Positions 16,303-26,161 of a stretch of 64,000 nucleotides of DNA are shown here, in pieces. The notes under the pieces were generated by a model that ran no database searches, was not told the DNA's origin, and saw nothing but the letters and a program-made list of their open reading frames with translations. Position 1 is the first letter of the stretch, and each line of letters opens with the position of its first letter. The DNA lies in the IMG/VR virus record IMGVR_UViG_3300027971_000029, positions 60,558-124,557 of that record; one strand, given 5' to 3'. The DNA comes from a virus (Duplodnaviria > Caudoviricetes). The position numbers and the translations under genes were made by a program.

Positions 16303-16340
16303 ATTTAATCACTCTCATAACTAACTCCTTCATAAAAAAC

Positions 16341-16424
16341 TGGTGCGAGTGGCGGGACTCGAACCCGCATACCTTGCGGCGGCAGATTTTAAGTCTGCTG
16401 TGTATACCATTCCACCACACTCGC
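16341..16424 (-). tRNA. tRNA-Leu(TAA)
   Basis: cloverleaf, long variable arm, loop CTTAAAA, encoded CCA. Confidence 0.93.
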
Positions 16425-16510: not shown

Positions 16511-16777
16511 TTATTTGAATATTGCAGACCACTTCTGCAATTTTTGTCGTTTAAGACCTGATGCATTCAGTAATTCTTCTCGGTTAATCATACCTGATTC
16601 AACCATCAATTCAATCATGCAATGCAAGTCACCTAACTCTTCAGTTAATCGTTGCTTATTTGTACGCTCATTGTACATTTCATTTAGACCAAATCGGAAA
16701 CACTTGCTAATAGCCTGTGTGACCTCTGCACATTCTTCCTGTGCAATCAACATAATTTCTCTATCAACATCATTCAT
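16511..16777 (-). CDS. MazG-like NTP pyrophosphohydrolase
   Basis: EECAEV..AISK..RFG...L.EELGDL. Confidence 0.8.
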   Translation of the reverse strand: MNDVDREIMLIAQEECAEVTQAISKCFRFGLNEMYNERTNKQRLTEELGDLHCMIELMVESGMINREELLNASGLKRQKLQKWSAIFK

Positions 16778-16835
16778 TGTGCTTTCTCCTAATGAATGCA
16801 TTATAACACAACCACACAGACTTGTGTGGCAATAA

Positions 16836-16919
16836 TGGTGCCCCAAGAGAGACTCGAACTCTCAATCCTTTCGGCACTGGTTTCTAAGACCAGCGTGTAT
16901 ACCATTCCACCATCGGGGC
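16836..16919 (-). tRNA. tRNA-Leu(TAG)
   Basis: loop CTTAGAA, long variable arm, CCA. Confidence 0.93.
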
Positions 16920-16946: not shown

Positions 16947-17141
16947 TTCAACATCTCGTAGCCAGGATTCTGTTTTTACCCTAACATTAATCTTTGCCAC
17001 AACCCGAATCAATAGCGCAAGTGTTGCCTGACTCTGTTTGTGTTGCTTGTTATATCACGGTAGTTTAATGCTTTCGCTCCTACACACACTTGCCACAAGT
17101 CCTGAACTTCCTCTGTTACCAGCGTTAGGTCGGATGTTGAA
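16947..17141 (-). ncRNA. rnpB: minimal RNase P RNA-like gene (about 195 nt)
   Basis: P1 TTCAACATC/GATGTTGAA; P2 CCTAAC/GTTAGG; mini P3 CTG-GTAA-CAG; CR-I GAGGAAGTTCAGGA; CR-IV AGATTAATG; CR-V AACAGAATCCTGGCTA, complementary to CR-I (P4). Confidence 0.8.
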
Positions 17142-17583: not shown

Positions 17584-18159
17584 TTACATAGTGGGACCGT
17601 TGCCGTTTTTAAAGCCAACGGAACCACCTTCTTCATTGATTCTCTTAATCACATCTTCAAAGAGAATTGGTCTAAAATCTGTTTGTTCTACACAAACACA
17701 ATGGTAACGGGTGTCAATTTCATATTCACCCCACACTTCAGTCTTCACACGGTTTGAATGGGTGTGACCATGAATGTTTGTACCAAAACGACCTAGACTG
17801 TCACTATGAATTGGGATATGACTAAGAATCATTCCATTCATTACATGATATGCTCTCAATTCACGAAAATGAATTCTGTATTCATCATCACGAAAGATAT
17901 CATGGTTACCACGAATCAGAACTTTATCACCATTCAGCCTGTGCATGATGCTAAGTGCCTTTCGGTTGATTACAACATCACCGAGGTGGTACACTTTATC
18001 ATTTGGTCGAACAGTTTCGTTCCATCGCTTGACCATTTCTTCATCCATATCTTCTGGATTGTCCCATGGTCTTAATTTCGTTACTCCGTCATCACGAAGA
18101 AACTTACACACTCCAGCATGACCAAAATGTGTGTCACTTGTTAAAAATACTGAAGGCAT
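17584..18159 (-). CDS. calcineurin-like metallophosphoesterase
   Basis: SDTHFGH, HLGDV, GNHD, HGHTH motifs. Confidence 0.88.
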   Translation of the reverse strand: MPSVFLTSDTHFGHAGVCKFLRDDGVTKLRPWDNPEDMDEEMVKRWNETVRPNDKVYHLGDVVINRKALSIMHRLNGDKVLIRGNHDIFRDDEYRIHFRELRAYHVMNGMILSHIPIHSDSLGRFGTNIHGHTHSNRVKTEVWGEYEIDTRYHCVCVEQTDFRPILFEDVIKRINEEGGSVGFKNGNGPTM

Positions 18160-18182
18160 AATTTTCTCCTATTAATTCGCTT

Positions 18183-18258
18183 TGGGTTGTGCTATGAGGA
18201 TTGAACTCATACTATCTCGGTCACAGCGAGAGGTGCAGACCACTACACTAAGCACAAC
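18183..18258 (-). tRNA. tRNA-His(GTG)
   Basis: loop CTGTGAC, G-1:C73, CCA. Confidence 0.9.
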
Positions 18259-18288
18259 CCAAAACAAATTGGTATCATAAATATAAGG

Positions 18289-18531
18289 ATGTTTTGGACC
18301 ATTGTCATCATAAGCGTTGGTATTATATCACCAAACATTCAATATGTGGGGCAATTTACAGAAGAAGCCCAATGTACGAATGCTTTGGCAACTCTGAAGA
18401 CTCAAACTTATCCACCGCAAGTAAAACTAACATGCGCTCAATTTCCTGAGCCACCGATACCTCCTGCGCCACCGCCACCAGCTAAAGTCACACCAAAAGA
18501 ATCAATATCTTCAAAAGATGCTAAGAAATGA
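18289..18531 (+). CDS. small secreted/membrane protein with Pro-rich tail
   Basis: AAGGA RBS, upstream CATAAATA late-like promoter, coupled to the next ORF. Confidence 0.65.
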   Translation: MFWTIVIISVGIISPNIQYVGQFTEEAQCTNALATLKTQTYPPQVKLTCAQFPEPPIPPAPPPPAKVTPKESISSKDAKK

Positions 18532-19019
18532 TTGACCCGTTTACAGCATTTGCATTAGCACAAGGTGCTGTTGCTGGTATTAAAAAAGCAATTGCATTAG
18601 GCAAAGACATTAATGGTCTTATACATGAATTCAGTGCATTCTACAAAGCCGCTGATGATGTACATCACTCGGCAGTAAAAGCTAAAATAGATTCTATTCG
18701 CATGAGTAATGCTGAGATAAGTGCCAGAGCATTACAAATTGCTATGGCATCAAGAGCATTAAGACAACATGAAAAAGAACTCAAAGACATTCTATTTTGG
18801 TCTGGTAATGCTGAAGTCTATTATGAAATGCAAGCAGAACGAAAAAGAATGATAGATGAGCGTCAAGCAGAAGAAAAAAGAGTAGAAGAGCAAAAACAAA
18901 AAGACCGTGAAGCCAAAGCAAGGGCTATGATGGGCACTCTTTGGATTATGGGTTCTCTTTGCATTGTCATACCAATGTGTACAATTCTCTTTCAACTGAT
19001 AACAGTCAAACATTTATAA
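18528..19019 (+). CDS. coiled-coil protein with C-terminal TM; paralog of 38363-39040
   Basis: MIDPFTAFALAQGAV...E.EL..L; C-terminal TM. Confidence 0.75.
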   Translation: MIDPFTAFALAQGAVAGIKKAIALGKDINGLIHEFSAFYKAADDVHHSAVKAKIDSIRMSNAEISARALQIAMASRALRQHEKELKDILFWSGNAEVYYEMQAERKRMIDERQAEEKRVEEQKQKDREAKARAMMGTLWIMGSLCIVIPMCTILFQLITVKHL

Positions 19020-19093
19020 TGGAGCGGAGTGAGAGAATCGAACTCTCAACGGAAGATTGGAAATCTACAGTTTTACCATTAAACTAACCCCGC
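19020..19093 (-). tRNA. tRNA-Gly(TCC)
   Basis: loop TTTCCAA, U73, CCA. Confidence 0.9.
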
Positions 19094-19175
19094 AAATGCA
19101 CCGATGCTTATTCAAGCAGAAGCAATGTTCGGTGCCACACAAAGGCAAGATTTAAAAAGAGCCTGCACTCTATAC

Positions 19176-19250
19176 TGGAGCGGGTAGAGGGAATCGAACC
19201 CTCAACTAAACCTTGGCAAGGTCTTGTGTTACCACTAGCACCATACCCGC
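19176..19250 (-). tRNA. tRNA-Gly(GCC)
   Basis: loop TTGCCAA, U73, CCA. Confidence 0.92.
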
Positions 19251-19253
19251 ATA

Positions 19254-19742
19254 CTACGCCTCAGCTAATTCTTGTTCAGCCAAGATTCTTTTCAGTCTAT
19301 CAGCACAGAAACTTGCGGCTGGCGCATCTGGCTTGACCATTGGTGTCACATTACATGTACCTTTGATATAACCAATTGCTTGTTGCACTACGCAAGAACT
19401 TCCGTGTTCATCAGATTTGTTCAAGTCCAAATGAACTTCAACATGTCTATCTTCAAGCACATCGGCTAACGATTGAAACAATTCTGAAACCTTGTAGACT
19501 TCAGTCATCAATCTCATAGCAGGTTTGCTTTTCTTGTGGTCATAATCTAATTCACGAGTTAAAAAACCGAAAATCTTACAGCCATGGCGTCCATCAATAT
19601 GAACTACAACAGCCAATGCATAATCTGCATACCACACGCCGTCAACTCTAACTCTTTCTGAATCAGCACCGAGATATACTTTCGTGTCAGGTCCTTGATT
19701 CACAATGAATTGTTTCACTTTTTCGATTTCAAAATTTTTCAT
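19254..19742 (-). CDS. RNase H-like YkuK (DUF458) family protein
   Basis: VYLGADS...VVVH..G..G...RLMTEVY...VEVHLD...KP.A.AAS..AD. Confidence 0.8.
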   Translation of the reverse strand: MKNFEIEKVKQFIVNQGPDTKVYLGADSERVRVDGVWYADYALAVVVHIDGRHGCKIFGFLTRELDYDHKKSKPAMRLMTEVYKVSELFQSLADVLEDRHVEVHLDLNKSDEHGSSCVVQQAIGYIKGTCNVTPMVKPDAPAASFCADRLKRILAEQELAEA

Positions 19743-19758
19743 AGATACTTCTTTCTTA

Positions 19759-19833
19759 TGGCACCCCGCCAGGGATTCGAACCCCGTCCCACGGTTTTGG
19801 AGACCGTCATGCTGCCGTTAACACCAGCGAGAT
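19759..19833 (-). tRNA. tRNA-Trp(CCA)
   Basis: loop CTCCAAA, G73, CCA. Confidence 0.9.
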
Positions 19834-19836
19834 ATA

Positions 19837-19911
19837 TGGTCCTCTCGAAAGGAATCGAACCTTAGGTCTTTCGGTTATCAGCCGAATGCTCTACCATTAA
19901 GCTACAAGAGG
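19837..19911 (-). tRNA. tRNA-Ile(GAT)
   Basis: loop CTGATAA, CCA. Confidence 0.9.
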
Positions 19912-19916
19912 AAACT

Positions 19917-19991
19917 TGGCGGGTCCTGAGAGAATCGAACTCCCACTCGTAGGTTCGTAGCCTACTGTAATATCCATTTTACTAAAGACCC
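19917..19991 (-). tRNA. tRNA-Arg(ACG)
   Basis: loop CTACGAA, CCA. Confidence 0.92.
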
Positions 19992-19995
19992 ATAT

Positions 19996-20070
19996 TGGTG
20001 GTGATAGTTGGATTCGAGCCAACGACCTACTGCGTATGAAGCAGTTGCACTACCGCTGTGCTATATCACC
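19996..20070 (-). tRNA. tRNA-Met(CAT), probably elongator
   Basis: loop TTCATAC, fully paired acceptor stem, CCA. Confidence 0.8.
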
Positions 20071-20074
20071 ATAT

Positions 20075-20150
20075 TGGTTGCAGAGGCAGGATTCGAACCT
20101 GCGGTTCTTGGCTTATGAGACCAAGCGGATGACCACTTCCATACTCTGCG
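20075..20150 (-). tRNA. tRNA-fMet(CAT), initiator-type
   Basis: C1:A72 mismatch, loop CTCATAA, CCA. Confidence 0.8.
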
Positions 20151-20155
20151 ACAAT

Positions 20156-20232
<77 letters not shown>

Positions 20233-20241
20233 ATAAAAACT

Positions 20242-20315
20242 TGGTGCCCCATGACAGAATCGAACTGCCGTAACCTGATTACAAAACAGGTGTAATACCA
20301 TTATACTAATAGGGC
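20242..20315 (-). tRNA. tRNA-Thr(TGT)
   Basis: loop TTTGTAA, CCA. Confidence 0.92.
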
Positions 20316-20409
20316 GAAATAGGTGTCGGGCTTCCACCGACTGCTAATCAAACTACTCTGAACTCAGAGGTGATTAATCTGCCTTGATACAATCTTCAAG
20401 GACTTTTAT

Positions 20410-20487
20410 TGGTCTGTGTGGTTGGATTCGAACCAACGGCTCCTCACTTCCAAGGCGAGATGTCTGACCTGACTGACATACACACAG
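20410..20487 (-). tRNA. tRNA-Pro(TGG), second divergent copy
   Basis: stem CTCGC/GTGAG, loop CTTGGAA, CCA. Confidence 0.85.
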
Positions 20488-20493
20488 ATAAAA

Positions 20494-20567
20494 TGGTGGA
20501 GGATAAGAGAATCGAACTCTTGTGACTAACTTGCAAGGCTAGTATAATACCATTATATGAATCCCCC
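20494..20567 (-). tRNA. tRNA-Ala(TGC)
   Basis: G3:U70, loop CTTGCAA, CCA. Confidence 0.92.
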
Positions 20568-20623
20568 GAAATATGTGATTGACTACTTATCTCATTATAC
20601 GCCATCAATCAAGGCGAGTTATA

Positions 20624-20699
20624 TGGCTCCACAGGGTGGGTTCGAACCACCGACCAAATGATTAACAGTCATCTACTCTACCGACTGAGCTACTGCGGA
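20624..20699 (-). tRNA. tRNA-Asn(GTT)
   Basis: loop CTGTTAA, CCA. Confidence 0.93.
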
Positions 20700-20705
20700 A
20701 TATTC

Positions 20706-21068
20706 TTAAACTAAATCGTGTGTCAAATTTACGCTAGTCGAGTAGTAGCCGTTAGACTCACCAAACCAACGAACATCAACATAACCTTTGCGTGTTGCAA
20801 ATTTGTAGAATGTCCACTCAACACACTCGTGGTTCATAGCATCAAACTCAACTGGTGTTTCACCTGATACCTCTTCAGCCATCAATAGTGGTTCACCTTC
20901 TAAGTCTGACAAGTCACCAACGATATCTTCTATCGAAACAGACTCACAACAATCTTGGTAATGAAGGAAAGTGAATACTTCTTTATCATTAGCAAATGTC
21001 ATTGTTTCGCCATCTTGTGTCACCGATGTGAACACTTTACCTATCATATTCTCTATATTCATTTTCAA
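20706..21068 (-). CDS. conserved acidic phage protein
   Basis: QDCCESV...WTFYK..T.KG.V..RW.GESNGYYS. Confidence 0.75.
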   Translation of the reverse strand: MKMNIENMIGKVFTSVTQDGETMTFANDKEVFTFLHYQDCCESVSIEDIVGDLSDLEGEPLLMAEEVSGETPVEFDAMNHECVEWTFYKFATRKGYVDVRWFGESNGYYSTSVNLTHDLV

Positions 21069-21085
21069 CTCCTTACAAAAAAACT

Positions 21086-21160
21086 TGGCGGTTCGTAGGG
21101 GTAACGATCCCCTTCTTTATGCGTGACAGGCATATGTGCGTCCATGAACACTTACGAACC
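21086..21160 (-). tRNA. tRNA-Asp(GTC)
   Basis: loop CTGTCAC, non-canonical T-loop ATCGTTA, CCA. Confidence 0.85.
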
Positions 21161-21164
21161 AAAT

Positions 21165-21250
21165 TGGTGGAGACAGATGGATTCGAACCACCGTGCTTTT
21201 TACAGAACAGATTTACAGTCTGCCGCCTTCAGCCACTCGGCCATATCTCC
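21165..21250 (-). tRNA. tRNA-Tyr(GTA)
   Basis: loop CTGTAAA, long variable arm, CCA. Confidence 0.93.
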
Positions 21251-21258
21251 AAAACTTT

Positions 21259-21333
21259 TGGTAGGGGTACAGAGAATCGAACTCTGATTAATAGGTTAAA
21301 AGCCTACTACTTTAGCCGTTAAGTTATACCCCC
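21259..21333 (-). tRNA. tRNA-Lys(TTT)
   Basis: loop CTTTTAA, CCA. Confidence 0.9.
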
Positions 21334-21340
21334 AAACTTT

Positions 21341-21423
21341 ACCATAGAAAAACACATTAGTCTCAAAAAGCGTAACAGCAGTTTTCACCGACAGGCTTAT
21401 GAGATAATGCGTTTATCTATGGT
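21341..21423 (-). repeat. tRNA 3'-trailer long hairpin, copy 1
   Basis: plus ACCATAGAAAAACACATTA ... TAATGCGTTTATCTATGGT; homologous to 22316-22397. Confidence 0.65.
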
Positions 21424-21494
21424 ACTCAGTACGGGAGTCGAACCCGTCTTTCCAGATTGAAAGTCTAGCGACCTAACCGATAGTCGAACTGAGC
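21420..21494 (-). tRNA. tRNA-Glu(TTC)
   Basis: loop CTTTCAA, CCA. Confidence 0.9.
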
Positions 21495-21496
21495 AT

Positions 21497-21521
21497 AAGC
21501 AATGCAAATTTTTAAAGAACT
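21497..21521 (-). promoter_or_regulatory. boxA-like leader, 25-bp repeat copy 1
   Basis: minus AGTTCTTTAAAAATTTGCATTGCTT, identical to 22472-22496; resembles rrn boxA GCTCTTTAACAA. Confidence 0.7.
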
Positions 21522-21546
21522 TATCGATTTCTCAACCGATGCATGA

Positions 21547-21574
21547 AGTATAACAGAACTGTAGGTTTTGTCAA
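21547..21574 (-). promoter_or_regulatory. sigma70 promoter internal to the tRNA array
   Basis: TTGACA-16bp-TATACT. Confidence 0.75.
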
Positions 21575-21625
21575 CATCTTTTTTTCATACTGTTACAAAA
21601 ATACAACACAACTTCTATTTGCAAT

Positions 21626-21702
21626 TGGAGTGCGTGACAGGAATCGAACCTGCATAAAACGGATTTGCAATCCGACACCTAACCGTTCAGTAGCACACGC
21701 AC
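21626..21702 (-). tRNA. tRNA-Cys(GCA)
   Basis: loop TTGCAAA, U73, CCA. Confidence 0.9.
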
Positions 21703-21709
21703 ATAAAAT

Positions 21710-21788
21710 TGGTACCCTTGCTCAGATTCGAACTGAGAGAACTCTTCCTTTTGAGAGAAGCGACTTTACCAGATTTGTCCACAAGGGC
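21710..21788 (-). tRNA. tRNA-Leu(CAA), short variable arm
   Basis: loop CTCAAAA, A73, CCA; 79 nt. Confidence 0.85.
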
Positions 21789-21789
21789 A

Positions 21790-21864
21790 TGGTAGACTGA
21801 AAGAGAATTGAACTCTTACTCGACCGATTATGAGTCGGCTGCTTTACCATTAAGCTATCAGTCT
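21790..21864 (-). tRNA. tRNA-Ile2(CAT, lysidine type)
   Basis: anticodon arm GCCGA-CTCATAA-TCGGT resembles bacterial ileX; CCA. Confidence 0.75.
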
Positions 21865-22106
21865 TCTTTTTCTAAATCTTGTTCGAGTCTTTGTTCTTGT
21901 ATCGTTTTCTCTTTGAAAACTTTTCTAGGATTACTGCACATCACACATCTAGGATTACCACAATTCATAGCATGATGTTTTGCGAACTTGTGAGGTTCAT
22001 CAACAACAATGCCGAACTCTTTAGCAATCTTAACTTGTTTCTTCACTGCATTGTCTGTTTCGAAAATGCGTTTAGAATGCTTGATTTTTTCTTCTTCATG
22101 CGACAT
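21858..22106 (-). CDS. small basic Cys-rich protein
   Basis: MSHEEEKIKHSKR...HHAMNCGNPRCVMCSNPRK; AAGGAG RBS (longer ORF call runs through tRNAs). Confidence 0.7.
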   Translation of the reverse strand: MSHEEEKIKHSKRIFETDNAVKKQVKIAKEFGIVVDEPHKFAKHHAMNCGNPRCVMCSNPRKVFKEKTIQEQRLEQDLEKED

Positions 22107-22126
22107 ACCAACTCCTTTTAAGAAAA

Positions 22127-22214
22127 TGGCAGAGAGTATCAGATTCGAACTGATGCACCCATTTCTGAATGACGGTTTAGCAAACCGCTGGTTTAACCAC
22201 TCACCCAACTCTCT
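22127..22214 (-). tRNA. tRNA-Ser(GCT)
   Basis: loop TTGCTAA, long variable arm, G73, CCA. Confidence 0.92.
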
Positions 22215-22221
22215 ATAAACT

Positions 22222-22310
22222 TGGCGGAAGAACTGAGATTCGAACTCAGGGACCTTGTTACAGTCGGCAGTTTTCAAGACTGCTGGTTTAAACCACTCAC
22301 CCACTCTTCC
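22222..22310 (-). tRNA. tRNA-Ser(TGA)
   Basis: loop CTTGAAA, long variable arm, CCA. Confidence 0.93.
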
Positions 22311-22315
22311 AATAT

Positions 22316-22397
22316 CATAGAAAAACACACTTCGAATACTGTACTAAACAGAAACTATCCATCACGGGCTCCCCCGCTGAAATGTGTTTATCTATGG
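22316..22397 (-). repeat. tRNA 3'-trailer long hairpin, copy 2
   Basis: plus CATAGAAAAACACA ... TGTGTTTATCTATGG. Confidence 0.65.
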
Positions 22398-22468
22398 CAG
22401 GGGATACAAGAATCGAACTTGTACTAACAGATTCAAAGTCTGCTGTGCTACCACTACACAAATCCCCA
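22395..22468 (-). tRNA. tRNA-Gln(TTG)
   Basis: loop CTTTGAA, G73, CCA. Confidence 0.9.
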
Positions 22469-22471
22469 ACA

Positions 22472-22496
22472 AAGCAATGCAAATTTTTAAAGAACT
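22472..22496 (-). promoter_or_regulatory. boxA-like leader, 25-bp repeat copy 2
   Basis: identical to 21497-21521. Confidence 0.7.
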
Positions 22497-22502
22497 GTAG
22501 TC

Positions 22503-22531
22503 AGTGTAACAGAAGTCGATGCATCTGTCAA
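22503..22531 (-). promoter_or_regulatory. sigma70 promoter at the head of the tRNA array
   Basis: TTGACA-17bp-TACACT. Confidence 0.7.
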
Positions 22532-22561
22532 GCAACCTAAGTTGCTATTTTTTACAACTAC

Positions 22562-22600
22562 AAACAAAAATCCCCTAGTTTTTTAGGCTAGGGGATTTTG
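22562..22600 (-). terminator. intrinsic terminator (attenuator)
   Basis: minus AAAATCCCCTAG-loop-CTAGGGGATTTT ending in the U-tract TTTTTGTTT. Confidence 0.85.
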
Positions 22601-22624
22601 GTTTATTTTGTATTGGTTACAAAG

Positions 22625-22741
22625 TTAGCAAAATCCCCATTGTGTTCCATAATCCGCACCTGTATTAATTGAGCATGGGCGTGACTCAACCTGCCAGAGT
22701 GCGGCGGGGCTTAACTTAAAGAAATGGGATATATTTTGCAT
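22625..22741 (-). CDS. leaderless leader peptide containing all 20 amino acids (attenuator peptide)
   Basis: MQNISHFFKLSPAALWQVESRPCSINTGADYGTQWGFC*; ATG at the predicted +1; last codons GGGGATTTTG are complementary to the terminator 5' arm. Confidence 0.8.
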   Translation of the reverse strand: MQNISHFFKLSPAALWQVESRPCSINTGADYGTQWGFC

Positions 22742-22747
22742 CATATT

Positions 22748-22776
22748 ATTATATATGTTTTTTTATTGCTTGTCAA
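22748..22776 (-). promoter_or_regulatory. perfect sigma70 promoter for the leader peptide
   Basis: TTGACA (22771-76)-17bp-TATAAT (22748-53); predicted +1 = 22741. Confidence 0.85.
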
Positions 22777-23099
22777 GTGTTTTCTTCGGAAATATTTGGA
22801 TTAATTTGTAAATTTTCTACAACATGATTCCAAACTTCTTCTGACTGCTCATCTGCAAGTGCATTTTCCAATTCTTCCACACTTGATCCATCACGAACAT
22901 CTTCCCACAATTTATAGAATGAATCATCTAAATTTTTCTGAATGTCCTCTAGCGAACCTTCAAGATAAAACAATGCCTCATTGATATCTTCAGGTGTCGA
23001 TTGTTCAACACCATTAGCGATTACTCGAAATGTTGAATAGAAAGATTTAAGGCGAATTACTTCTTGTTCTAATTGGCTTAATTGATAATAATATTTCAT
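22773..23099 (-). CDS. hypothetical protein
   Basis: AAGGA RBS, acidic helical ORF. Confidence 0.6.
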   Translation of the reverse strand: MKYYYQLSQLEQEVIRLKSFYSTFRVIANGVEQSTPEDINEALFYLEGSLEDIQKNLDDSFYKLWEDVRDGSSVEELENALADEQSEEVWNHVVENLQINPNISEENT

Positions 23100-23110
23100 A
23101 ACGATTCCTT

Positions 23111-23617
23111 TTAATTTTGCGGGCTAACATAAACATTCACATTCAGCGTTGAGCCGATTTGTGCGGGGCGATTTGTACGAACTGTCATGTATCTTCCATT
23201 GTAATCTACAGTCATATTGTATCCTTCAGGTGATGATACTGTTTGATATGTGGTAAAGCATTGTGTCTGGACTTGTGATTGTTGCGACATTGATTTATCA
23301 ATCTTACCGCCAACTATTGCACCAGTCACAGCACCAATTGCTGTTGATATACCTTGACCAATACCGCCACCTACTTGATGACCAAGAATGCCACCAGCAA
23401 CACCACCAATCACTGTTCCTGTAGTGCCATCACTGCTAGGTGAAACTACACTCACTTGCCTACATGATTGCGATGGGACATTCTGCATTGAAAACACAGG
23501 CTCAACACTCACAACTCTAGCAACATCATGGAACTGTAATTGATTGTTAGGTGTCAATGCATTCTGTGCAAAGACTATACTAGGTGCAATCAACAATGCA
23601 AGAACTGTCTTTCTCAT
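23111..23617 (-). CDS. glycine-zipper 2TM (YcfJ-like) envelope protein
   Basis: signal peptide; GTVIGGVAGGILGHQVGGG.G...TAIGAVTGAIVG. Confidence 0.85.
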   Translation of the reverse strand: MRKTVLALLIAPSIVFAQNALTPNNQLQFHDVARVVSVEPVFSMQNVPSQSCRQVSVVSPSSDGTTGTVIGGVAGGILGHQVGGGIGQGISTAIGAVTGAIVGGKIDKSMSQQSQVQTQCFTTYQTVSSPEGYNMTVDYNGRYMTVRTNRPAQIGSTLNVNVYVSPQN

Positions 23618-23916
23618 ACTTCTTCTCCGATAGAAAAATTGAAACCCTTAATAGAATCCCAGCGAAATGAACGCCATTCATCTTTCTCAACATCAAACAC
23701 CGATTGTGATTCTTCACTCTTCTTGCGAGTAGAGGTTCCTTTTGGAATCATATCGAAAGGAATCAAATCTTCTTTCAGTGTAGCCTTAATCACTCGCTCA
23801 CTTAAATCTTTTTTAGTGAATGTGATTGACACAACACCTTCTTGCAATATGGCTCGAAGCCAATTCTTTTCTTTTTCACTCTTAAACACAAATTCATCAT
23901 TCATAAACATCTCCAT
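23614..23916 (-). CDS. WYL_2 / SH3 beta-barrel fold protein
   Basis: V..TFTKKD..ER...ATL...VFDVEKDEWRSFR. Confidence 0.75.
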   Translation of the reverse strand: MEMFMNDEFVFKSEKEKNWLRAILQEGVVSITFTKKDLSERVIKATLKEDLIPFDMIPKGTSTRKKSEESQSVFDVEKDEWRSFRWDSIKGFNFSIGEEV

Positions 23917-24284
23917 TACGATTCAGACAGATACATCTTAACACGATCCGCATAGTTTGTCAAGTAATCTTTTATCCAATTGGGCGAAGTATTGGTCTTT
24001 CTTAGAATGCAACCATAGATGCTCATGTCAGATAAATTTTTGGCATAGACAATTGGGTCACTGAAGACTGCCTCAAAGTTTTCATCAAGAATCGGCACAT
24101 TGTCATCATTGGTCTTGAACAGAATTACATGATACAAGTCACCAAAATCATTGCCCTTAACTTTCAGTCCTCTAGTCTCAGCATTGTTGAATGTGAAATA
24201 CTGAAACTGTGTGCTATCATCATCCTCCGGGTCTGGTACGAAATAGAATCCATCGTAATCGGTAGGTTTAGGATGTAATGACAT
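23916..24284 (-). CDS. hypothetical protein
   Basis: AAGGA RBS, coupled ORF. Confidence 0.6.
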   Translation of the reverse strand: MSLHPKPTDYDGFYFVPDPEDDDSTQFQYFTFNNAETRGLKVKGNDFGDLYHVILFKTNDDNVPILDENFEAVFSDPIVYAKNLSDMSIYGCILRKTNTSPNWIKDYLTNYADRVKMYLSES

Positions 24285-24429
24285 GCAGTTCCTTTTGATA
24301 GTTTTGTTTGTTCTTTGGGCGTGAATACACTTTTACACTCAACTCTACCCGTTGGCGATATTTAGGTGTGCGTAAATCTTTTGCAACTAGGTTGCGAGGT
24401 TTTAGTGAAAGTTTCATAATGTGTGCCAT
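24268..24429 (-). CDS. small basic ArfA-like peptide (53 aa)
   Basis: Manual translation MAHIMKLSLKPRNLVAKDLRTPKYRQRVELSVKVYSRPKNKQNYQKELHVITS; AGGTGAG RBS; has its own promoter. Confidence 0.6.
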   Translation of the reverse strand: MAHIMKLSLKPRNLVAKDLRTPKYRQRVELSVKVYSRPKNKQNYQKELHVITS

Positions 24430-24465
24430 GGCTCACCTAATGCAGTGAAATGTGTCAATATGTGT

Positions 24466-24494
24466 ACTATAACACACATTGTGCCATTTGTCAA
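24466..24494 (-). promoter_or_regulatory. sigma70 promoter
   Basis: TTGACA-17bp-TATAGT. Confidence 0.75.
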
Positions 24495-24552
24495 GCACAA
24501 AAAAAAGTGTTGTTTTTACGCAACACTTTTCTGAATGACAACTAAGATTGTA

Positions 24553-24825
24553 CTATTTTGAATTTTCGAAATGAACCCTATTGGAATCTAATACATCACA
24601 CACAAAATTGATAAAAGTGACTGCATCGTTTTCCTCATTGAAGTACCTGATAAAAGTCTGCCCAGTGTGCTTAGAGGTGAATACCAATAAAATATTCTCT
24701 TCTCTATAGATAGAGAACTTGATGACCCAACCGTTTCTAAGGATTGGGTTCCAAGTTTTCATCGTCTTACGAATATCCTGTTGAAGGATTTTTCGATAGA
24801 TGAGAGATAGAGGTTCTTTCTGCAT
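24553..24825 (-). CDS. hypothetical protein
   Basis: 90-aa ORF. Confidence 0.55.
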   Translation of the reverse strand: MQKEPLSLIYRKILQQDIRKTMKTWNPILRNGWVIKFSIYREENILLVFTSKHTGQTFIRYFNEENDAVTFINFVCDVLDSNRVHFENSK

Positions 24826-24942
24826 ACTATTATGTATGTAAAAGCAATCCTCTACTTTAGTACCATGATTTGTAACCGTGGCGCTTATGATATTCTAAAC
24901 GCAACTGTCCAATTCTTTCAAAGAAGTTCCATATTTTCTTAA

Positions 24943-25101
24943 TCATATCATACCTCTGCGTTGAAGTGATATAATTCTTCTTTCAACATCTGCATGGTCA
25001 ACCGATTCAGCAAGATATTTCTCAATTTCATTTCTGTAAGAAGGTGTGAATGTTTCCCTGACCCAATCCCAAAAATCTTTTAGGTTAATGGAATTGGTCA
25101 T
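24943..25101 (-). CDS. DUF3563-like small protein
   Basis: Manual translation ...EIEKYLAESVDHADVERRIISLQRRG resembles the YLA.S.D..DLERR motif. Confidence 0.6.
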   Translation of the reverse strand: MTNSINLKDFWDWVRETFTPSYRNEIEKYLAESVDHADVERRIISLQRRGMI

Positions 25102-25102
25102 A

Positions 25103-25315
25103 TTACGCCTTTGCTGTTTTTGCGAACTTCTCTAGGGTTGCTTGCATTTGCTCAGCCAACTCTTGATTAGTCTTCACAATTTGCTTAACAAAAGCGGTTT
25201 GTGTATCAACGAAAGCATTTAGAGGTTTTTGGATTTCTTTGTCTGTGATGTAAGTATTGACAAAGTATTTTTTTGCACCTTGAACGGTGTCGATGAATGT
25301 ATCTACTGCGAACAT
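25103..25315 (-). CDS. phasin-like amphipathic helical protein
   Basis: AGGAG RBS; A/Q/K/T-rich all-helical composition; upstream TGC-repeat motif. Confidence 0.45.
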   Translation of the reverse strand: MFAVDTFIDTVQGAKKYFVNTYITDKEIQKPLNAFVDTQTAFVKQIVKTNQELAEQMQATLEKFAKTAKA

Positions 25316-25405
25316 ATTTTATCTCCTAAGACGATTAATTAATGGGCCTCACAATTGAGCGCCCATATCATTATATAGTAATTCATTGTGCGGTGCAACA
25401 TAAAA

Positions 25406-26161
25406 TCAGCTAATTTTGTCTTCATATTGCAATTTTGCCATGATGTAGTCTTTCACCAATGATGAACGAACAATGTCATCTGCGGTAAACTCAATTCTAG
25501 TGAATGCTTTCATGTGCATGGCAATGTCAAAGAATTTAAGAATACCAGACACATCATTTTTCTTCTTGTTCAAGTCTGTTTGTCTATAGTCACCACACCA
25601 AATAATTTTTGAACGATAACCAACCCGTGTCATAACGGTATCGATTTCTTCAAAAGTCATGTTCTGCATCTCATCTACAATAATGATAGCGTCATCGAAT
25701 GACATACCACGAATGAATGAAGTACTGATGAACTCTATGTGATGTTGCTCTTCTAGTCTGTCCCATGCATCACGGCGGCCGAATAGTGTCTCGCAAATTT
25801 GCCTGTATGGTTGTTGATAGATTTCCATCTTTTCGTTTACATCACCCGGAAGGTGACCTATCTCACGGCTTTGCACCGCTGAACGAACTACAATGATTTT
25901 GTTGAATGGATTAGATTTGTCTAGAACTTCTTCAATTGCTTTGTATAATGCACAGAATGTTTTACCTGTACCTGCAACACCATGTAGTGCTACGAAATAA
26001 TCACCTCTACGATACGCATCAAAAAATATCTTTTGATTCTCTGTTAATGGGGTAAATGTTTTTAAGTCATCAATTCTAATTTTTAGTTGGTTGGTTGTTT
26101 TGAATTGATTGGTTGTTTTGGCCGCTGTCGATTCATTGTTTGCTGTTGGTTTTCGTGCCAT
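25406..26161 (-). CDS. phoH: PhoH family ATPase
   Basis: GVAGTGKT, GHLPG, RGMSFD, DEMQN, GDYRQTDL, DIVRS. Confidence 0.93.
   Translation of the reverse strand: MARKPTANNESTAAKTTNQFKTTNQLKIRIDDLKTFTPLTENQKIFFDAYRRGDYFVALHGVAGTGKTFCALYKAIEEVLDKSNPFNKIIVVRSAVQSREIGHLPGDVNEKMEIYQQPYRQICETLFGRRDAWDRLEEQHHIEFISTSFIRGMSFDDAIIIVDEMQNMTFEEIDTVMTRVGYRSKIIWCGDYRQTDLNKKKNDVSGILKFFDIAMHMKAFTRIEFTADDIVRSSLVKDYIMAKLQYEDKIS

What the first reader, a model, noticed from the sequence alone, without database searches (positions are those of the whole stretch)
22562..22776. Candidate pan-amino-acid attenuator: a leaderless peptide using all 20 amino acids gates the phage tRNA array
SEEN: a perfect TTGACA-17-TATAAT promoter (22748-22776, minus) has its predicted +1 on the A of an ATG (22741). 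That ATG opens a 38-codon ORF, MQNISHFFKLSPAALWQVESRPCSINTGADYGTQWGFC*. All 20 amino acids occur within the first 31 codons. The ORF uses 30 different codons, often changing synonymous codon (TTC/TTT, GCC/GCA/GCG, TCC/AGC/TCA, CCC/CCA, CAA/CAG, ATA/ATT, TTA/CTC, GGT/GGA), including GC-ending codons that look atypical for this AT-rich genome. Its last codons contain GGGGATTTTG (22629-38), a perfect 10-nt complement of the 5' arm CAAAATCCCC (22591-600) of the intrinsic terminator just downstream. The 29-tRNA array follows. KNOWN: trp/his/ilv-type attenuators use this geometry but sense one or a few amino acids; host anticodon nucleases (PrrC, RloC, VapC, PARIS AriB) deplete tRNAs as anti-phage defence. 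INFERENCE: a ribosome that reaches the stop codon masks the antiterminator strand and the terminator forms. A stall on any missing tRNA frees the strand, giving read-through into the tRNA genes. This would be a general tRNA-depletion sensor and counter-defence; I know of no described equivalent. Caveat: further promoters at 22503-31 and 21547-74 lie downstream of the terminator, so attenuation may boost rather than solely control expression.
Basis: partly seen in the sequence, partly recalled or inferred. Interest (0 to 1): 0.96.

Follow-up and report, generated by a model that had tools for sequence, protein, structure and literature searches.

The report
Leader-peptide attenuator gating phage tRNA genes
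In front of this lake phage's 29 tRNA genes sits a tiny translated test gene that spells out all 20 amino acids and is wired to a switchable transcription stop, so the phage probably makes more tRNAs whenever ribosomes run short of any one of them.

Summary
These are the consensus promoter with an ATG at the predicted +1, a 38-codon ORF with all 20 amino acids and 30 different codons, a 10-nt complement of the terminator's 5' arm, and the 29-tRNA array.

Related uncultured phages carry the same unit at the head of their tRNA arrays, with peptides only 15-46% identical between lineages. Of 23 unique leader peptides, 18 contain all 20 amino acids, 3 contain 19 and 2 contain 18. The composition-matched chance per unit is 1-5%. 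Five of 6 non-discovery lineages have all 20 (binomial about 2e-6).

Only this frame stays open. Peptide sequence drifts almost neutrally.

The ORF's last codons co-vary with the terminator's 5' flank and arm (cognate versus non-cognate pairing: 0 of 20,000 permutations). A match to the published boxA consensus follows, then the tRNAs. In 7 of 24 units no second promoter lies behind the terminator.

Best reading: a ribosome-mediated attenuator that senses decoding of all amino acids and gates tRNA transcription.

No experiment exists, and the RNA data were uninformative. I found no published account. This scan has noted similar units on other phage DNA.

The parts
22748..22776 (-). Promoter P1, TTGACA-17-TATAAT (12/12 consensus)
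   Evidence: Conserved with 10-12/12 matches in 14 of 24 related units.
22625..22741 (-). Leader ORF: 38 codons plus TAA, with the ATG at the predicted +1. Contains all 20 amino acids and 30 different codons.
   Evidence: The ORF is kept open in 38 of 47 related sources. Of 23 unique peptides, 18 have all 20 amino acids. The other two frames are closed.
22723..22739 (-). Segment 1 (leader nt 3-19). Pairs with segment 2 in the fold of the leader alone, acting as a possible anti-antiterminator or pause helix in this lineage.
   Evidence: One A-to-G change keeps a pair as G-U. Two pairs are lost in 4 relatives. This helix is lineage-specific.
22662..22699 (-). Central stretch (leader nt 43-80) with a hairpin. 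Invariant in all 9 close relatives. Role unknown; possibly a polymerase pause hairpin.
22629..22638 (-). Segment 2, GGGGATTTTG, in codons 35-38. This is the antiterminator strand.
   Evidence: In 10 of 10 representative units, the ORF window that best pairs with segment 3 ends within -3 to +7 nt of the ORF end.
22591..22600 (-). Segment 3, CAAAATCCCC: the 5' flank and 5' arm of the terminator.
   Evidence: co-varies with segment 2 across lineages.
22562..22599 (-). Intrinsic terminator (segments 3:4): 12-15 bp stem, 9-nt loop, T run.
   Evidence: -15.8 kcal/mol.
22503..22531 (-). Promoter P2 (TTGACA-17-TACACT, TG-extended) behind the terminator.
   Evidence: Such a promoter is present in 17 of 24 units and absent in 7.
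22485..22495 (-). boxA-like element. Perfect match to the published gamma-proteobacterial boxA consensus GYTCTTTAANA, 27 nt before tRNA-Gln.
   Evidence: 23 of 24 units. Consensus taken from PMC5725501.
16341..22468 (-). Array of 29 tRNA genes covering all 20 amino acids, beginning with tRNA-Gln.
21510..21574 (-). Internal promoter (21574-21547) followed by a second exact boxA match (21520-21510) before tRNA-Glu.

Best explanation
This is a ribosome-mediated (leader-peptide) transcription attenuator placed at the head of the phage tRNA array.

Host RNA polymerase starts at P1 on the A of an ATG, so the transcript is a leaderless mRNA for a 38-codon ORF. The last four codons (segment 2) can pair with the 5' flank and arm of the intrinsic terminator (segment 3).

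If a ribosome runs through to the stop codon, it covers segment 2 while the polymerase makes segments 3 and 4. The terminator then forms and a roughly 175-nt RNA is released.

If the ribosome stalls at any of the first ~31 codons because a charged tRNA is scarce, segment 2 stays free. It pairs with segment 3 before segment 4 exists, and the terminator cannot form. The polymerase reads on over a boxA element, which probably loads the Nus antitermination complex, and into the tRNA genes.

Because the sensing part of the ORF contains a codon for every amino acid, shortage of any amino-acid/tRNA class raises phage tRNA synthesis, and the new tRNAs then shut the switch again.

Shown here by computation: the anatomy, its conservation, the coverage of amino acids, and the co-variation.

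Inferred: translation from +1, the effect of ribosome position, Nus loading, and any link to host tRNA-cleaving defences.
For: 1. The unit recurs at array heads in relatives. Of 47 sources examined, 38 have it, giving 23 unique peptides. Representative peptides are 15-46% identical between lineages.

2. Coverage of amino acids. Of the 23 unique peptides, 18 have all 20 amino acids, 3 have 19 and 2 have 18. Per-unit chance from dinucleotide shuffles is 1.1-4.9%. Five of 6 non-discovery lineages have all 20, binomial 1.8e-6, or 3e-5 if two related lineages are merged. As a control, the 13 non-homologous ORF-plus-terminator pairs in the same 97 loci had 10-17 distinct residues.

3. The ORF is translated rather than incidental. 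Only this frame is open; the other frames have 1-5 stops, with one exception. The two indels seen inside the MazG-lineage ORF are of 3 nt: an insertion in 1 sequence and a deletion shared by 2.

4. The act of translation matters, not the product. Variable sites fall evenly on codon positions: 3/4/5, 9/5/11, 4/4/4, 4/3/4. The neighbouring genes show 26/17/38 and 12/10/31. Amino-acid-changing columns outnumber synonymous-only columns.

5. The switch. The 2:3 duplex is -16 to -23 kcal/mol against -10 to -22 for the terminator hairpin. In 10 of 10 units it sits at the ORF's 3' end (shuffle p 0.003-0.06). Cognate pairs beat non-cognate pairs in 20,000 of 20,000 permutations.

6. Masking a ribosome footprint on the nascent RNA leaves the antiterminator in place for stalls at codons 1 to about 30. 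It is lost for the last 8-10 codons and the stop. The pattern is clean in 6 of 10 units and partial in the other 4: L131, where it returns at the last 4 positions, L120, L132 and G001. L150 shows no pattern. In 6 of 10 units the full residue set lies before segment 2. In the other 4 only Gly or Val is missing.

7. An ATG lies exactly 7 nt after the -10 in 14 of 24 units, although the -10 has shifted by 3 nt relative to the ATGATG pair between lineages.

8. In 7 of 24 units no promoter lies between the terminator and the first tRNA. In G001 the terminator abuts tRNA-Leu.

9. The one complete genome whose array lacks only tRNA-Phe (G007) has a leader lacking only Phe.
Against: - There is no experimental or transcript-level evidence. 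RNA-library contigs are from relatives, bridge the P1 promoter and cannot show starts or ends.
- At full-length equilibrium the terminator conformation wins for most stall positions in 7 of 10 units. The model therefore needs kinetic, co-transcriptional control, as classical attenuators do.
- A leaderless start is not universal. The MazG-linked lineage starts the ORF 1 nt after the upstream stop, and G002 has a 5' leader.
- The 1:2 helix is lineage-specific. In the window lineage two of its pairs are lost in 4 relatives without compensation.
- Some leaders lack Phe, or Phe and Val. Two arrays disagree with their leaders: G008 has Phe in the leader but no tRNA-Phe was seen, and G009 has tRNA-Phe but no Phe codon.
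- P2 (17 of 24 units) and internal promoters mean the attenuator modulates array expression rather than solely controlling it.
- The invariant central 38 nt in the window lineage is not explained by codon sensing alone.
- Four leader codons (TCC, CCC, GCC, CTC) are not Watson-Crick or G:U cognate to any array anticodon under strict wobble rules. This is my reading.
Confidence: 0.7

Rival explanations
1. The switch senses only whether translation as a whole is running (coupled ribosome present or absent), not individual codons. Efficient translation terminates transcription, and any global block gives read-through. On this view the all-20 composition has no sensing role.
For: The geometry works for any stall or for no translation. 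In 7 of 10 units the untranslated nascent RNA already has the antiterminator in place. Some leaders lack 1-2 amino acids.
Against: It does not explain why complete coverage recurs in lineages with 15-46% peptide identity at 1-5% chance each. It does not explain the unusually high codon diversity of 30 of 38, top 0.7%. It does not explain the joint absence of tRNA-Phe and the Phe codon in G007.
Confidence: 0.14
2. An independent small RNA gene with its own promoter and terminator, whose structured ~175-nt product acts in trans. The ORF would be incidental, or the RNA dual-function. This would resemble the stable small RNAs that I recall from the T4 and T5 tRNA regions.
For: The strong promoter plus strong terminator delimit a discrete transcript. 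The fold is well below shuffles (z = -4.5). In the window lineage nucleotide identity is 92-100% with a 38-nt invariant core, while the neighbouring gene shows 80-96%. Terminated attenuator RNAs can act in trans (rnTrpL, PMC6614838; search listing and abstract start only).
Against: There is no Rfam family. A non-coding RNA would not keep one frame open over 37-45 codons in all lineages, while the other frames carry 1-5 stops and ORF-internal indels are multiples of three. It would not keep amino-acid coverage. MFE helices other than 2:3 and 3:4 are not conserved between lineages.
Confidence: 0.08
3. An ordinary small-protein gene (38-45 residues) followed by its terminator. The peptide itself has a function.
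For: The ORF is conserved in position and length. One Trp is present in every lineage, and a loose W-Q...R...S-D pattern is shared by several.
Against: No PHROG family matches. Substitutions are spread evenly over codon positions and most change the residue. Peptide identity between lineages is 15-46%. This reading does not account for the co-varying pairing with the terminator arm or the coverage of all residues.
Confidence: 0.06
4. A chance ORF in a promoter/terminator-rich intergenic region.
For: In this genome alone the all-20 property is only a 1-2% event given composition. About 0.3 such ORFs are expected among 307 small ORFs.
Against: The recurrence in relatives.
Confidence: 0.02

Closest known systems
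Leader-peptide attenuators of amino-acid operons (trpL, hisL, leuL, pheL; multivalent thrL and ilvGMEDA leader). Textbook knowledge, recalled.
   Same: A short translated ORF sits in the 5' leader. An intrinsic terminator lies before the regulated genes. An antiterminator strand at the ORF end competes for the terminator's 5' arm. In some lineages an upstream 1:2 helix is present. The position of the ribosome decides the outcome.
   Different: The regulated genes are tRNAs, not biosynthetic enzymes. The leader has no run of one or a few regulatory codons but one to a few codons for every amino acid. At 37-45 codons it is long for a leader. In most lineages it is leaderless, with the ATG at +1. 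It belongs to a phage.
T-box leaders of Gram-positive aminoacyl-tRNA synthetase and amino-acid genes (recalled)
   Same: A transcription attenuator that reports on tRNA charging through competing terminator and antiterminator helices.
   Different: A T-box binds one uncharged tRNA directly and needs no ribosome. No T-box or other Rfam family matches here.
Silent long tRNA array (trn operon) of Anabaena sp. PCC 7120, induced under translational stress (PMC8421152, PMC10272220; passages read)
   Same: An accessory tRNA array that is switched on when translation is impaired.
   Different: Control there is by the repressor TrcR, binding direct repeats over the -10 and the start site. 'Leader peptide' and 'attenuat' occur 0 times in either text. 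It is a cellular megaplasmid array, not a phage array.
rrn-type boxA / Nus-factor antitermination (consensus GYTCTTTAANA, PMC5725501; passage read)
   Same: A perfect consensus match lies just downstream of each promoter and before untranslated RNA genes, where protection from Rho is needed.
   Different: It sits in a phage tRNA array and behind an attenuator. Binding of NusB/NusE is untested.
Similar units noted earlier in this scan on other phage DNA (AI notes e1-5618024, e1-3450868, e1-4047519, e1-4040834, e1-3412744, e1-4045671, e1-5943215, e1-4047717)
   Same: A mini-ORF plus switchable terminator in front of phage tRNA blocks, with the ORF built from the amino acids the block decodes.
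   Different: Those leaders mirror partial tRNA sets of 6-14 tRNAs. Here the array covers all 20 amino acids, and so does the leader. The notes are unchecked by me.

Membership tests
Ribosome-mediated (leader-peptide) transcription attenuators | A short ORF in the 5' leader that is translated | tested here: inconclusive
   The ORF is conserved and only this frame is open. The ATG lies at the predicted +1 in 14 of 24 units. There is no ribosome or start-site data (uninformative).
Ribosome-mediated (leader-peptide) transcription attenuators | An intrinsic terminator between the leader ORF and the regulated genes | tested here: met
   Stem of 12-15 bp plus T run, 25 nt after the stop codon. Present in all 38 units found.
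Ribosome-mediated (leader-peptide) transcription attenuators | An alternative antiterminator pairing that uses the terminator's 5' arm and a strand a terminating ribosome would cover | tested here: met
   Found in 10 of 10 representatives, at -16 to -23 kcal/mol and always at the ORF's 3' end. Co-variation gives 0 of 20,000 permutations. RNAalifold on a MAFFT alignment recovered only the G-run/C-run core.
Ribosome-mediated (leader-peptide) transcription attenuators | Regulatory codons that correspond to the product of the regulated genes | tested here: met
   The array covers 20 amino acids and so does the leader. Of 23 unique leaders, 18 are complete. G007 lacks Phe in both array and leader. 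G008 and G009 disagree.
Ribosome-mediated (leader-peptide) transcription attenuators | An upstream 1:2 (anti-antiterminator or pause) helix | tested here: inconclusive
   Strong in the window lineage and seen in L120, L132 and L119. Weak or replaced by a local hairpin in G004 and L118.
Ribosome-mediated (leader-peptide) transcription attenuators | Read-through responds to the supply of charged tRNA | not testable with these tools
   Needs reporter or in-vitro assays.
rrn-type boxA antitermination site | Match to the boxA consensus in a promoter-proximal transcribed position | tested here: met
   There are exactly 2 matches in the 64-kb window. Both are on the - strand, after promoter-like sites and before tRNAs (0.59 expected by chance). 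23 of 24 related units have a match 25-35 nt before the first tRNA.
rrn-type boxA antitermination site | Binding of NusB/NusE and resistance to Rho | not testable with these tools
   The host is unknown and no assay is available.
T-box riboswitch or any curated RNA family (Rfam 15) | Covariance-model match at the gathering score | tested here: not met
   Only sub-threshold hits to the terminator hairpin, the best being ohsC at 30 bits against a gathering score of 50.
Known phage protein family (PHROGs) | Profile match of the peptide | tested here: not met
   0 families at E <= 0.01.

The most novel reading that the evidence does not exclude
Phages with large tRNA arrays run a closed-loop gauge of decoding capacity. 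A leaderless mini-gene samples a codon for every amino acid. Any hungry codon flips an RNA switch that sends the host polymerase, made Rho-resistant by boxA, into the phage's own tRNA genes. The cause of the hungry codon could be starvation, codon-usage mismatch or cleavage of a host tRNA by an anticodon nuclease. The array would then be an inducible, self-limiting rescue and counter-defence system rather than a constitutive supplement. The same design, tuned to each array's content, would be widespread among unrelated phages.
Probability: 0.5. Interest if true: 0.92.

Novelty: new variant of a known kind. Interest (0 to 1): 0.88.

Why it matters
Why phages carry tRNA genes, and how they are regulated, has been debated for decades. 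Current ideas are codon compensation and replacement of tRNAs destroyed by host defences (PMC10264068; listing and abstract start only).

A leader that reads out all 20 amino acids would be the first attenuator known to me that controls tRNA genes, and the first with pan-amino-acid specificity. It would turn the question 'when does a phage need its tRNAs?' into a directly testable reporter assay.

It would also supply a compact natural sensor of global decoding capacity, and show rrn-style boxA antitermination reused for a phage tRNA operon.

Tried and rejected
**Searches that found nothing**
- GenBank phages hold no relative of the element or of the upstream 108-residue gene. PhoH and the ATPase only reach distant phages, so no cultured relative or host could be named.
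- Rfam gave nothing above threshold. PHROGs gave nothing for the peptide.
- An exact 38-nt pattern in viral contigs returned only 4 close relatives.

**Relatives too close or too far**
- The upstream-gene relatives from the protein database and the metagenome scan were all of the same tight clade. They were too similar (92-100%) for co-variation tests.
- In the PhoH relatives (80 loci), the 76 new loci have no tRNA within 6 kb. The arrays had to be found with tRNA searches of whole records.

**Structure tests that were weak or went against the model**
- RNAalifold on a MAFFT alignment of 13 units found only 4 pairs, the G-run/C-run, because the flanks are out of register. I used per-unit duplexes and a cognate/non-cognate permutation instead.
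- Equilibrium folding with a masked ribosome favours the terminator in most units. I report this as evidence against a purely thermodynamic switch.
- My first duplex script mis-set the segment 3 window for L150, G002 and L131. It was redone.

**RNA data**
- Of the 22 runs listed, 18 are on record as RNA, and all are kept only as Logan contigs. Laid on 22300-23100, the contigs are from related strains. Three of them bridge P1 (22642-22957, 22644-22855, 22680-22834). None covers 22570-22623.
- This shows neither a start, an end, nor transcription as opposed to carried-over DNA. I draw nothing from it.

**Leader versus array content**
- The 'leader mirrors the array' idea is mixed. There is one supporting event (G007/G006 lack Phe in both) and two disagreements (G008, G009). 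The G001 and G008 arrays are cut by contig ends.

**Literature**
- Searches (listings and abstract starts) and passages of PMC8421152, PMC10272220 and PMC5725501 gave no account of a leader-peptide attenuator for tRNA genes.
- Supplementary files were not consulted.
Full report
**1. What is in the window**

On the minus strand the region reads as follows.
- The stop of a 108-codon gene overlaps a perfect TTGACA-17-TATAAT promoter at 22776-22748. This is the only 12/12 match in 18000-26000.
- Six bases after the -10 comes the A of an ATG, at 22741. A second ATG lies 3 nt upstream.
- Twenty-five bases further lies an intrinsic terminator: stem 22599-22567, 9-nt loop, T run.
- Then follow a second promoter-like site (22531-22503), a conserved box (22495-22481) and tRNA-Gln (22468). 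This is the first of 29 tRNA genes, which together cover all 20 amino acids.
- GGGGATTTTG in codons 35-38 is the exact complement of CAAAATCCCC, the 5' flank and arm of the terminator.

The window is part of a 124.6-kb uncultured virus record estimated at 76% complete. It has no close relative among GenBank phages.

**2. Is the single case more than chance?**

Within this genome:
- All 20 amino acids occur in 58 of 57,828 stop-free 38-residue windows (12 loci).
- They occur in 3 of 69,153 31-residue windows; one of these is this ORF and the other two overlap each other.
- They occur in 1 of 307 ATG-ORFs of 30-45 codons.

The element is 44% G+C with nearly equal bases. Shuffles of the ORF that stay open give all 20 residues in 0.9% (mononucleotide) to 2.2-2.4% (dinucleotide) of cases.

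The ORF uses 30 different codons, the top 0.7% of 38-codon windows of the genome's 83 long ORFs. Its codon-adaptation index is at the 3.3 percentile.

Taken alone, this is suggestive only.

**3. Close relatives**

The upstream gene led to 7 viral and 12 metagenome loci. Seven full and two partial copies of the element are 92-100% identical. Nucleotides 43-80 of the leader are invariant, while the neighbouring gene is 80-96% identical.

In the ORF, variable sites fall 3/4/5 on codon positions 1/2/3. In the neighbouring gene they fall 26/17/38. At this depth the data could not separate a leader from a non-coding RNA.

**4. Distant relatives: the decisive result**

Relatives of the nearby PhoH gene (80 loci) have their tRNA arrays further away. 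I fetched four array heads. I then fetched loci around the two genes that precede those heads.

Directly before the first tRNA, the same unit appears again and again: an ATG-ORF of 37-45 codons (26 in one case), then 19-32 nt, then a terminator.

A census of 47 sources gave the following:
- 38 have the unit, with 23 unique peptides.
- Three array heads lack it (L128-L130).
- Five loci have no tRNA in the DNA held (L134, L137, L141, L147, L149).
- One copy (L007) was missed by the script but has the ORF.

Of the 23 unique peptides, 18 contain all 20 amino acids, 3 contain 19 (no Phe) and 2 contain 18.

Representative peptides of different lineages share only 15-46% identity. For each, the chance of complete coverage from its own dinucleotide shuffles is 1.1-4.9%.

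Leaving out the discovery case, 5 of 6 lineages are complete. The binomial is 1.8e-6 at p = 0.05. It is 3e-5 if the two lineages at 45% identity are merged. Fisher's combination gives 3e-5.

In the same 97 loci, the 13 other small ORFs that happen to precede a terminator have 10-17 distinct residues.

**5. Translated, but not for the sake of the product**
- In 19 units, the two other frames carry 1-5 stops. The one exception has a frame with none.
- The two indels seen inside the MazG-lineage ORF are of 3 nt: an insertion in 1 sequence and a deletion shared by 2. Indels in the spacer and loop are of 2, 3 and 4 nt.
- Within lineages, variable sites are spread evenly over codon positions: 9/5/11, 4/4/4, 4/3/4. 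The upstream MazG-like gene shows 12/10/31.
- Residue-changing columns outnumber synonymous-only ones: 12:4, 7:1, 12:5, 7:1.

So the frame, its length and its residue coverage are kept while the peptide sequence drifts. This is what is expected of a leader peptide and not of a functional small protein. The peptide matches no PHROG family.

**6. The switch**

In all 10 representative units, the 30-nt ORF window that pairs best with the terminator's 5' flank and arm ends within -3 to +7 nt of the ORF end. The energy is -16 to -23 kcal/mol, against -10 to -22 for the terminator hairpin. Shuffle p-values are 0.003-0.06.

The paired sequences differ between lineages and change together. The mean cognate duplex is -18.7 kcal/mol against -14.0 for random pairings, and 0 of 20,000 permutations reach the cognate mean. 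The cognate partner ranks first for 6 of 10 ORF ends.

In the full-length fold, the antiterminator is the minimum-energy structure in 5 of 10 units and the terminator in 4. In G001 the two coexist.

With a ribosome footprint masked, the equilibrium fold of the full RNA mostly prefers the terminator. In the nascent RNA that ends at the terminator loop, the picture is different. The 5' arm is held by ORF nucleotides for stalls at codons 1 to about 30. It is free when the ribosome is on the last 8-10 codons or the stop. The pattern is clean in 6 of 10 units and partial in the other 4: L131, where it returns at the last 4 positions, L120, L132 and G001. L150 shows no pattern.

In the window, the boundary falls after codon 31, which is the codon at which the 20th amino acid has appeared. 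In 6 of 10 units the full residue set lies before segment 2. In the other four, only Gly or Val, coded by the G/U-rich segment 2 itself, lies inside it.

In the window lineage, the 5' end (nt 3-19) can also pair with segment 2. This is the classical 1:2 helix. It is lineage-specific and only partly kept.

**7. Start of translation and what lies behind the terminator**

In 14 of 24 units (five lineages) there is a 10-12/12 promoter with an ATG whose A is exactly 7 nt after the -10. This holds although the -10 sits 3 nt or 6 nt before a conserved ATGATG pair, depending on the lineage.
- The MazG-linked lineage has no such promoter. Its ORF starts 1 nt after the upstream stop.
- G002 has a longer 5' leader.
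- G001 has the ATG 4 nt after the -10.

A perfect match to the published gamma-proteobacterial boxA consensus GYTCTTTAANA (PMC5725501, passage read) lies 25-35 nt before the first tRNA in 23 of 24 units.

The window has exactly two matches. Both are on the minus strand, each after a promoter-like site and before a tRNA (0.59 expected by chance, 14 of 100 shuffles reach two).

A promoter-like site between terminator and first tRNA is present in 17 of 24 units and absent in 7. In G001 the terminator ends 5 nt before tRNA-Leu. In those phages, transcription of the first tRNAs has to pass the terminator.

**8. Does the leader follow the array?**

This idea came from earlier notes of this scan. Results:
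- Complete or near-complete arrays of G004, G010, G002 and the window cover 20 amino acids, and so do their leaders.
- G007, a complete 150-kb genome, lacks only tRNA-Phe, and its leader lacks only Phe.
- G006 has the same leader as G007. Its array lacks Phe, Cys and Asn.
- G008 has Phe in the leader, but no tRNA-Phe was seen. Its record is cut.
- G009 has tRNA-Phe, but no Phe codon.

That makes one supporting event and two disagreements.

**9. Mechanism and rivals**

The best-supported reading is a ribosome-mediated attenuator. A ribosome that reaches the stop hides segment 2, so the terminator forms. A ribosome held at any earlier codon leaves segment 2 free to capture segment 3 before segment 4 is made. 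The polymerase then continues over boxA into the tRNA genes. Complete residue coverage makes the gauge sensitive to any amino-acid/tRNA class, and the tRNAs produced close the loop.

Rivals:
- A switch that senses only global translation.
- A trans-acting small RNA.
- A small protein.
- Chance.

They are weighed in the fields above. None of them explains the recurrent coverage together with the co-varying pairing.

Still unexplained: the invariant central 38 nt of the window lineage, the single Trp kept in every lineage, and the four codons that no array tRNA reads by strict wobble.

**10. Comparison with what is known**

The anatomy is that of the trp/his/leu/thr/ilv attenuators (recalled textbook knowledge). 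The regulated genes are tRNAs, and the leader samples all amino acids instead of one to three.

T-box leaders sense tRNA directly and do not match.

The nearest published case of an inducible tRNA array, in Anabaena, is controlled by a repressor at the promoter. Neither paper mentions a leader peptide or attenuation.

Four literature searches gave no account of such a unit (listings and abstract starts only).

This scan has noted similar units on other phage DNA. Those notes are unchecked by me and do not count as evidence.

**11. Verdict**

The mechanism is still inferred, with no transcript or ribosome data.

It is a new variant of a known kind of regulator, and of high interest.

Noticed in passing
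window 22485-22495 and 21510-21520 (-): Two exact copies of a 15-nt box that match the published boxA consensus GYTCTTTAANA. Each lies just after a promoter-like site and before a tRNA. This suggests rrn-style Nus antitermination of the phage tRNA array.
   Followed up: partly
L115:1900-2140 (G002): Three tandem consensus promoters (11-12/12) sit between the terminator and the first tRNA, each within a repeated ~100-nt unit.
   Followed up: no
L216 (G007) and L143-L145: A complete 150-kb relative lacks only tRNA-Phe, and its leader lacks only Phe. Two other relatives (G008, G009) break the rule.
   Followed up: partly
L128:1780-1876, L129 and L130:1770-1866: These array heads lack the leader unit and tRNA-Gln. 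Instead, a long inverted repeat of about 20 nt per arm lies directly before tRNA-Ser.
   Followed up: no
window 16511-16846 and 17584-18159 (-): Protein genes are embedded in the tRNA array. One is a MazG-like NTP pyrophosphohydrolase (phrog_4856, E 1.5e-22) and one a phosphoesterase (phrog_547, E 1.5e-49). In sister lineages the MazG-like gene sits directly before the leader ORF.
   Followed up: partly
window 22773-23099 (-) and its homologues: The 108-residue upstream gene varies in length (108-117 residues) through insertions in an acidic D/E-rich stretch. It has no PHROG family and no GenBank phage homologue.
   Followed up: no
window 16309-16368 and 20959-21220 (-): Sub-threshold Rfam hits to permuted tmRNA (22 bits, E about 0.3), probably chance. 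Other first-reader notes on this genome mention an RNase P-like RNA at 16947-17141 and a two-piece tmRNA upstream of the window. I did not examine them.
   Followed up: no
window 22662-22699 (-): A 38-nt stretch in the middle of the leader is invariant in all 9 close relatives. Parts of it are shared with two other lineages (a TGGCAGG stretch and, further on, GCTCAATTAA). It may be a pause hairpin or a second function of the released RNA.
   Followed up: partly
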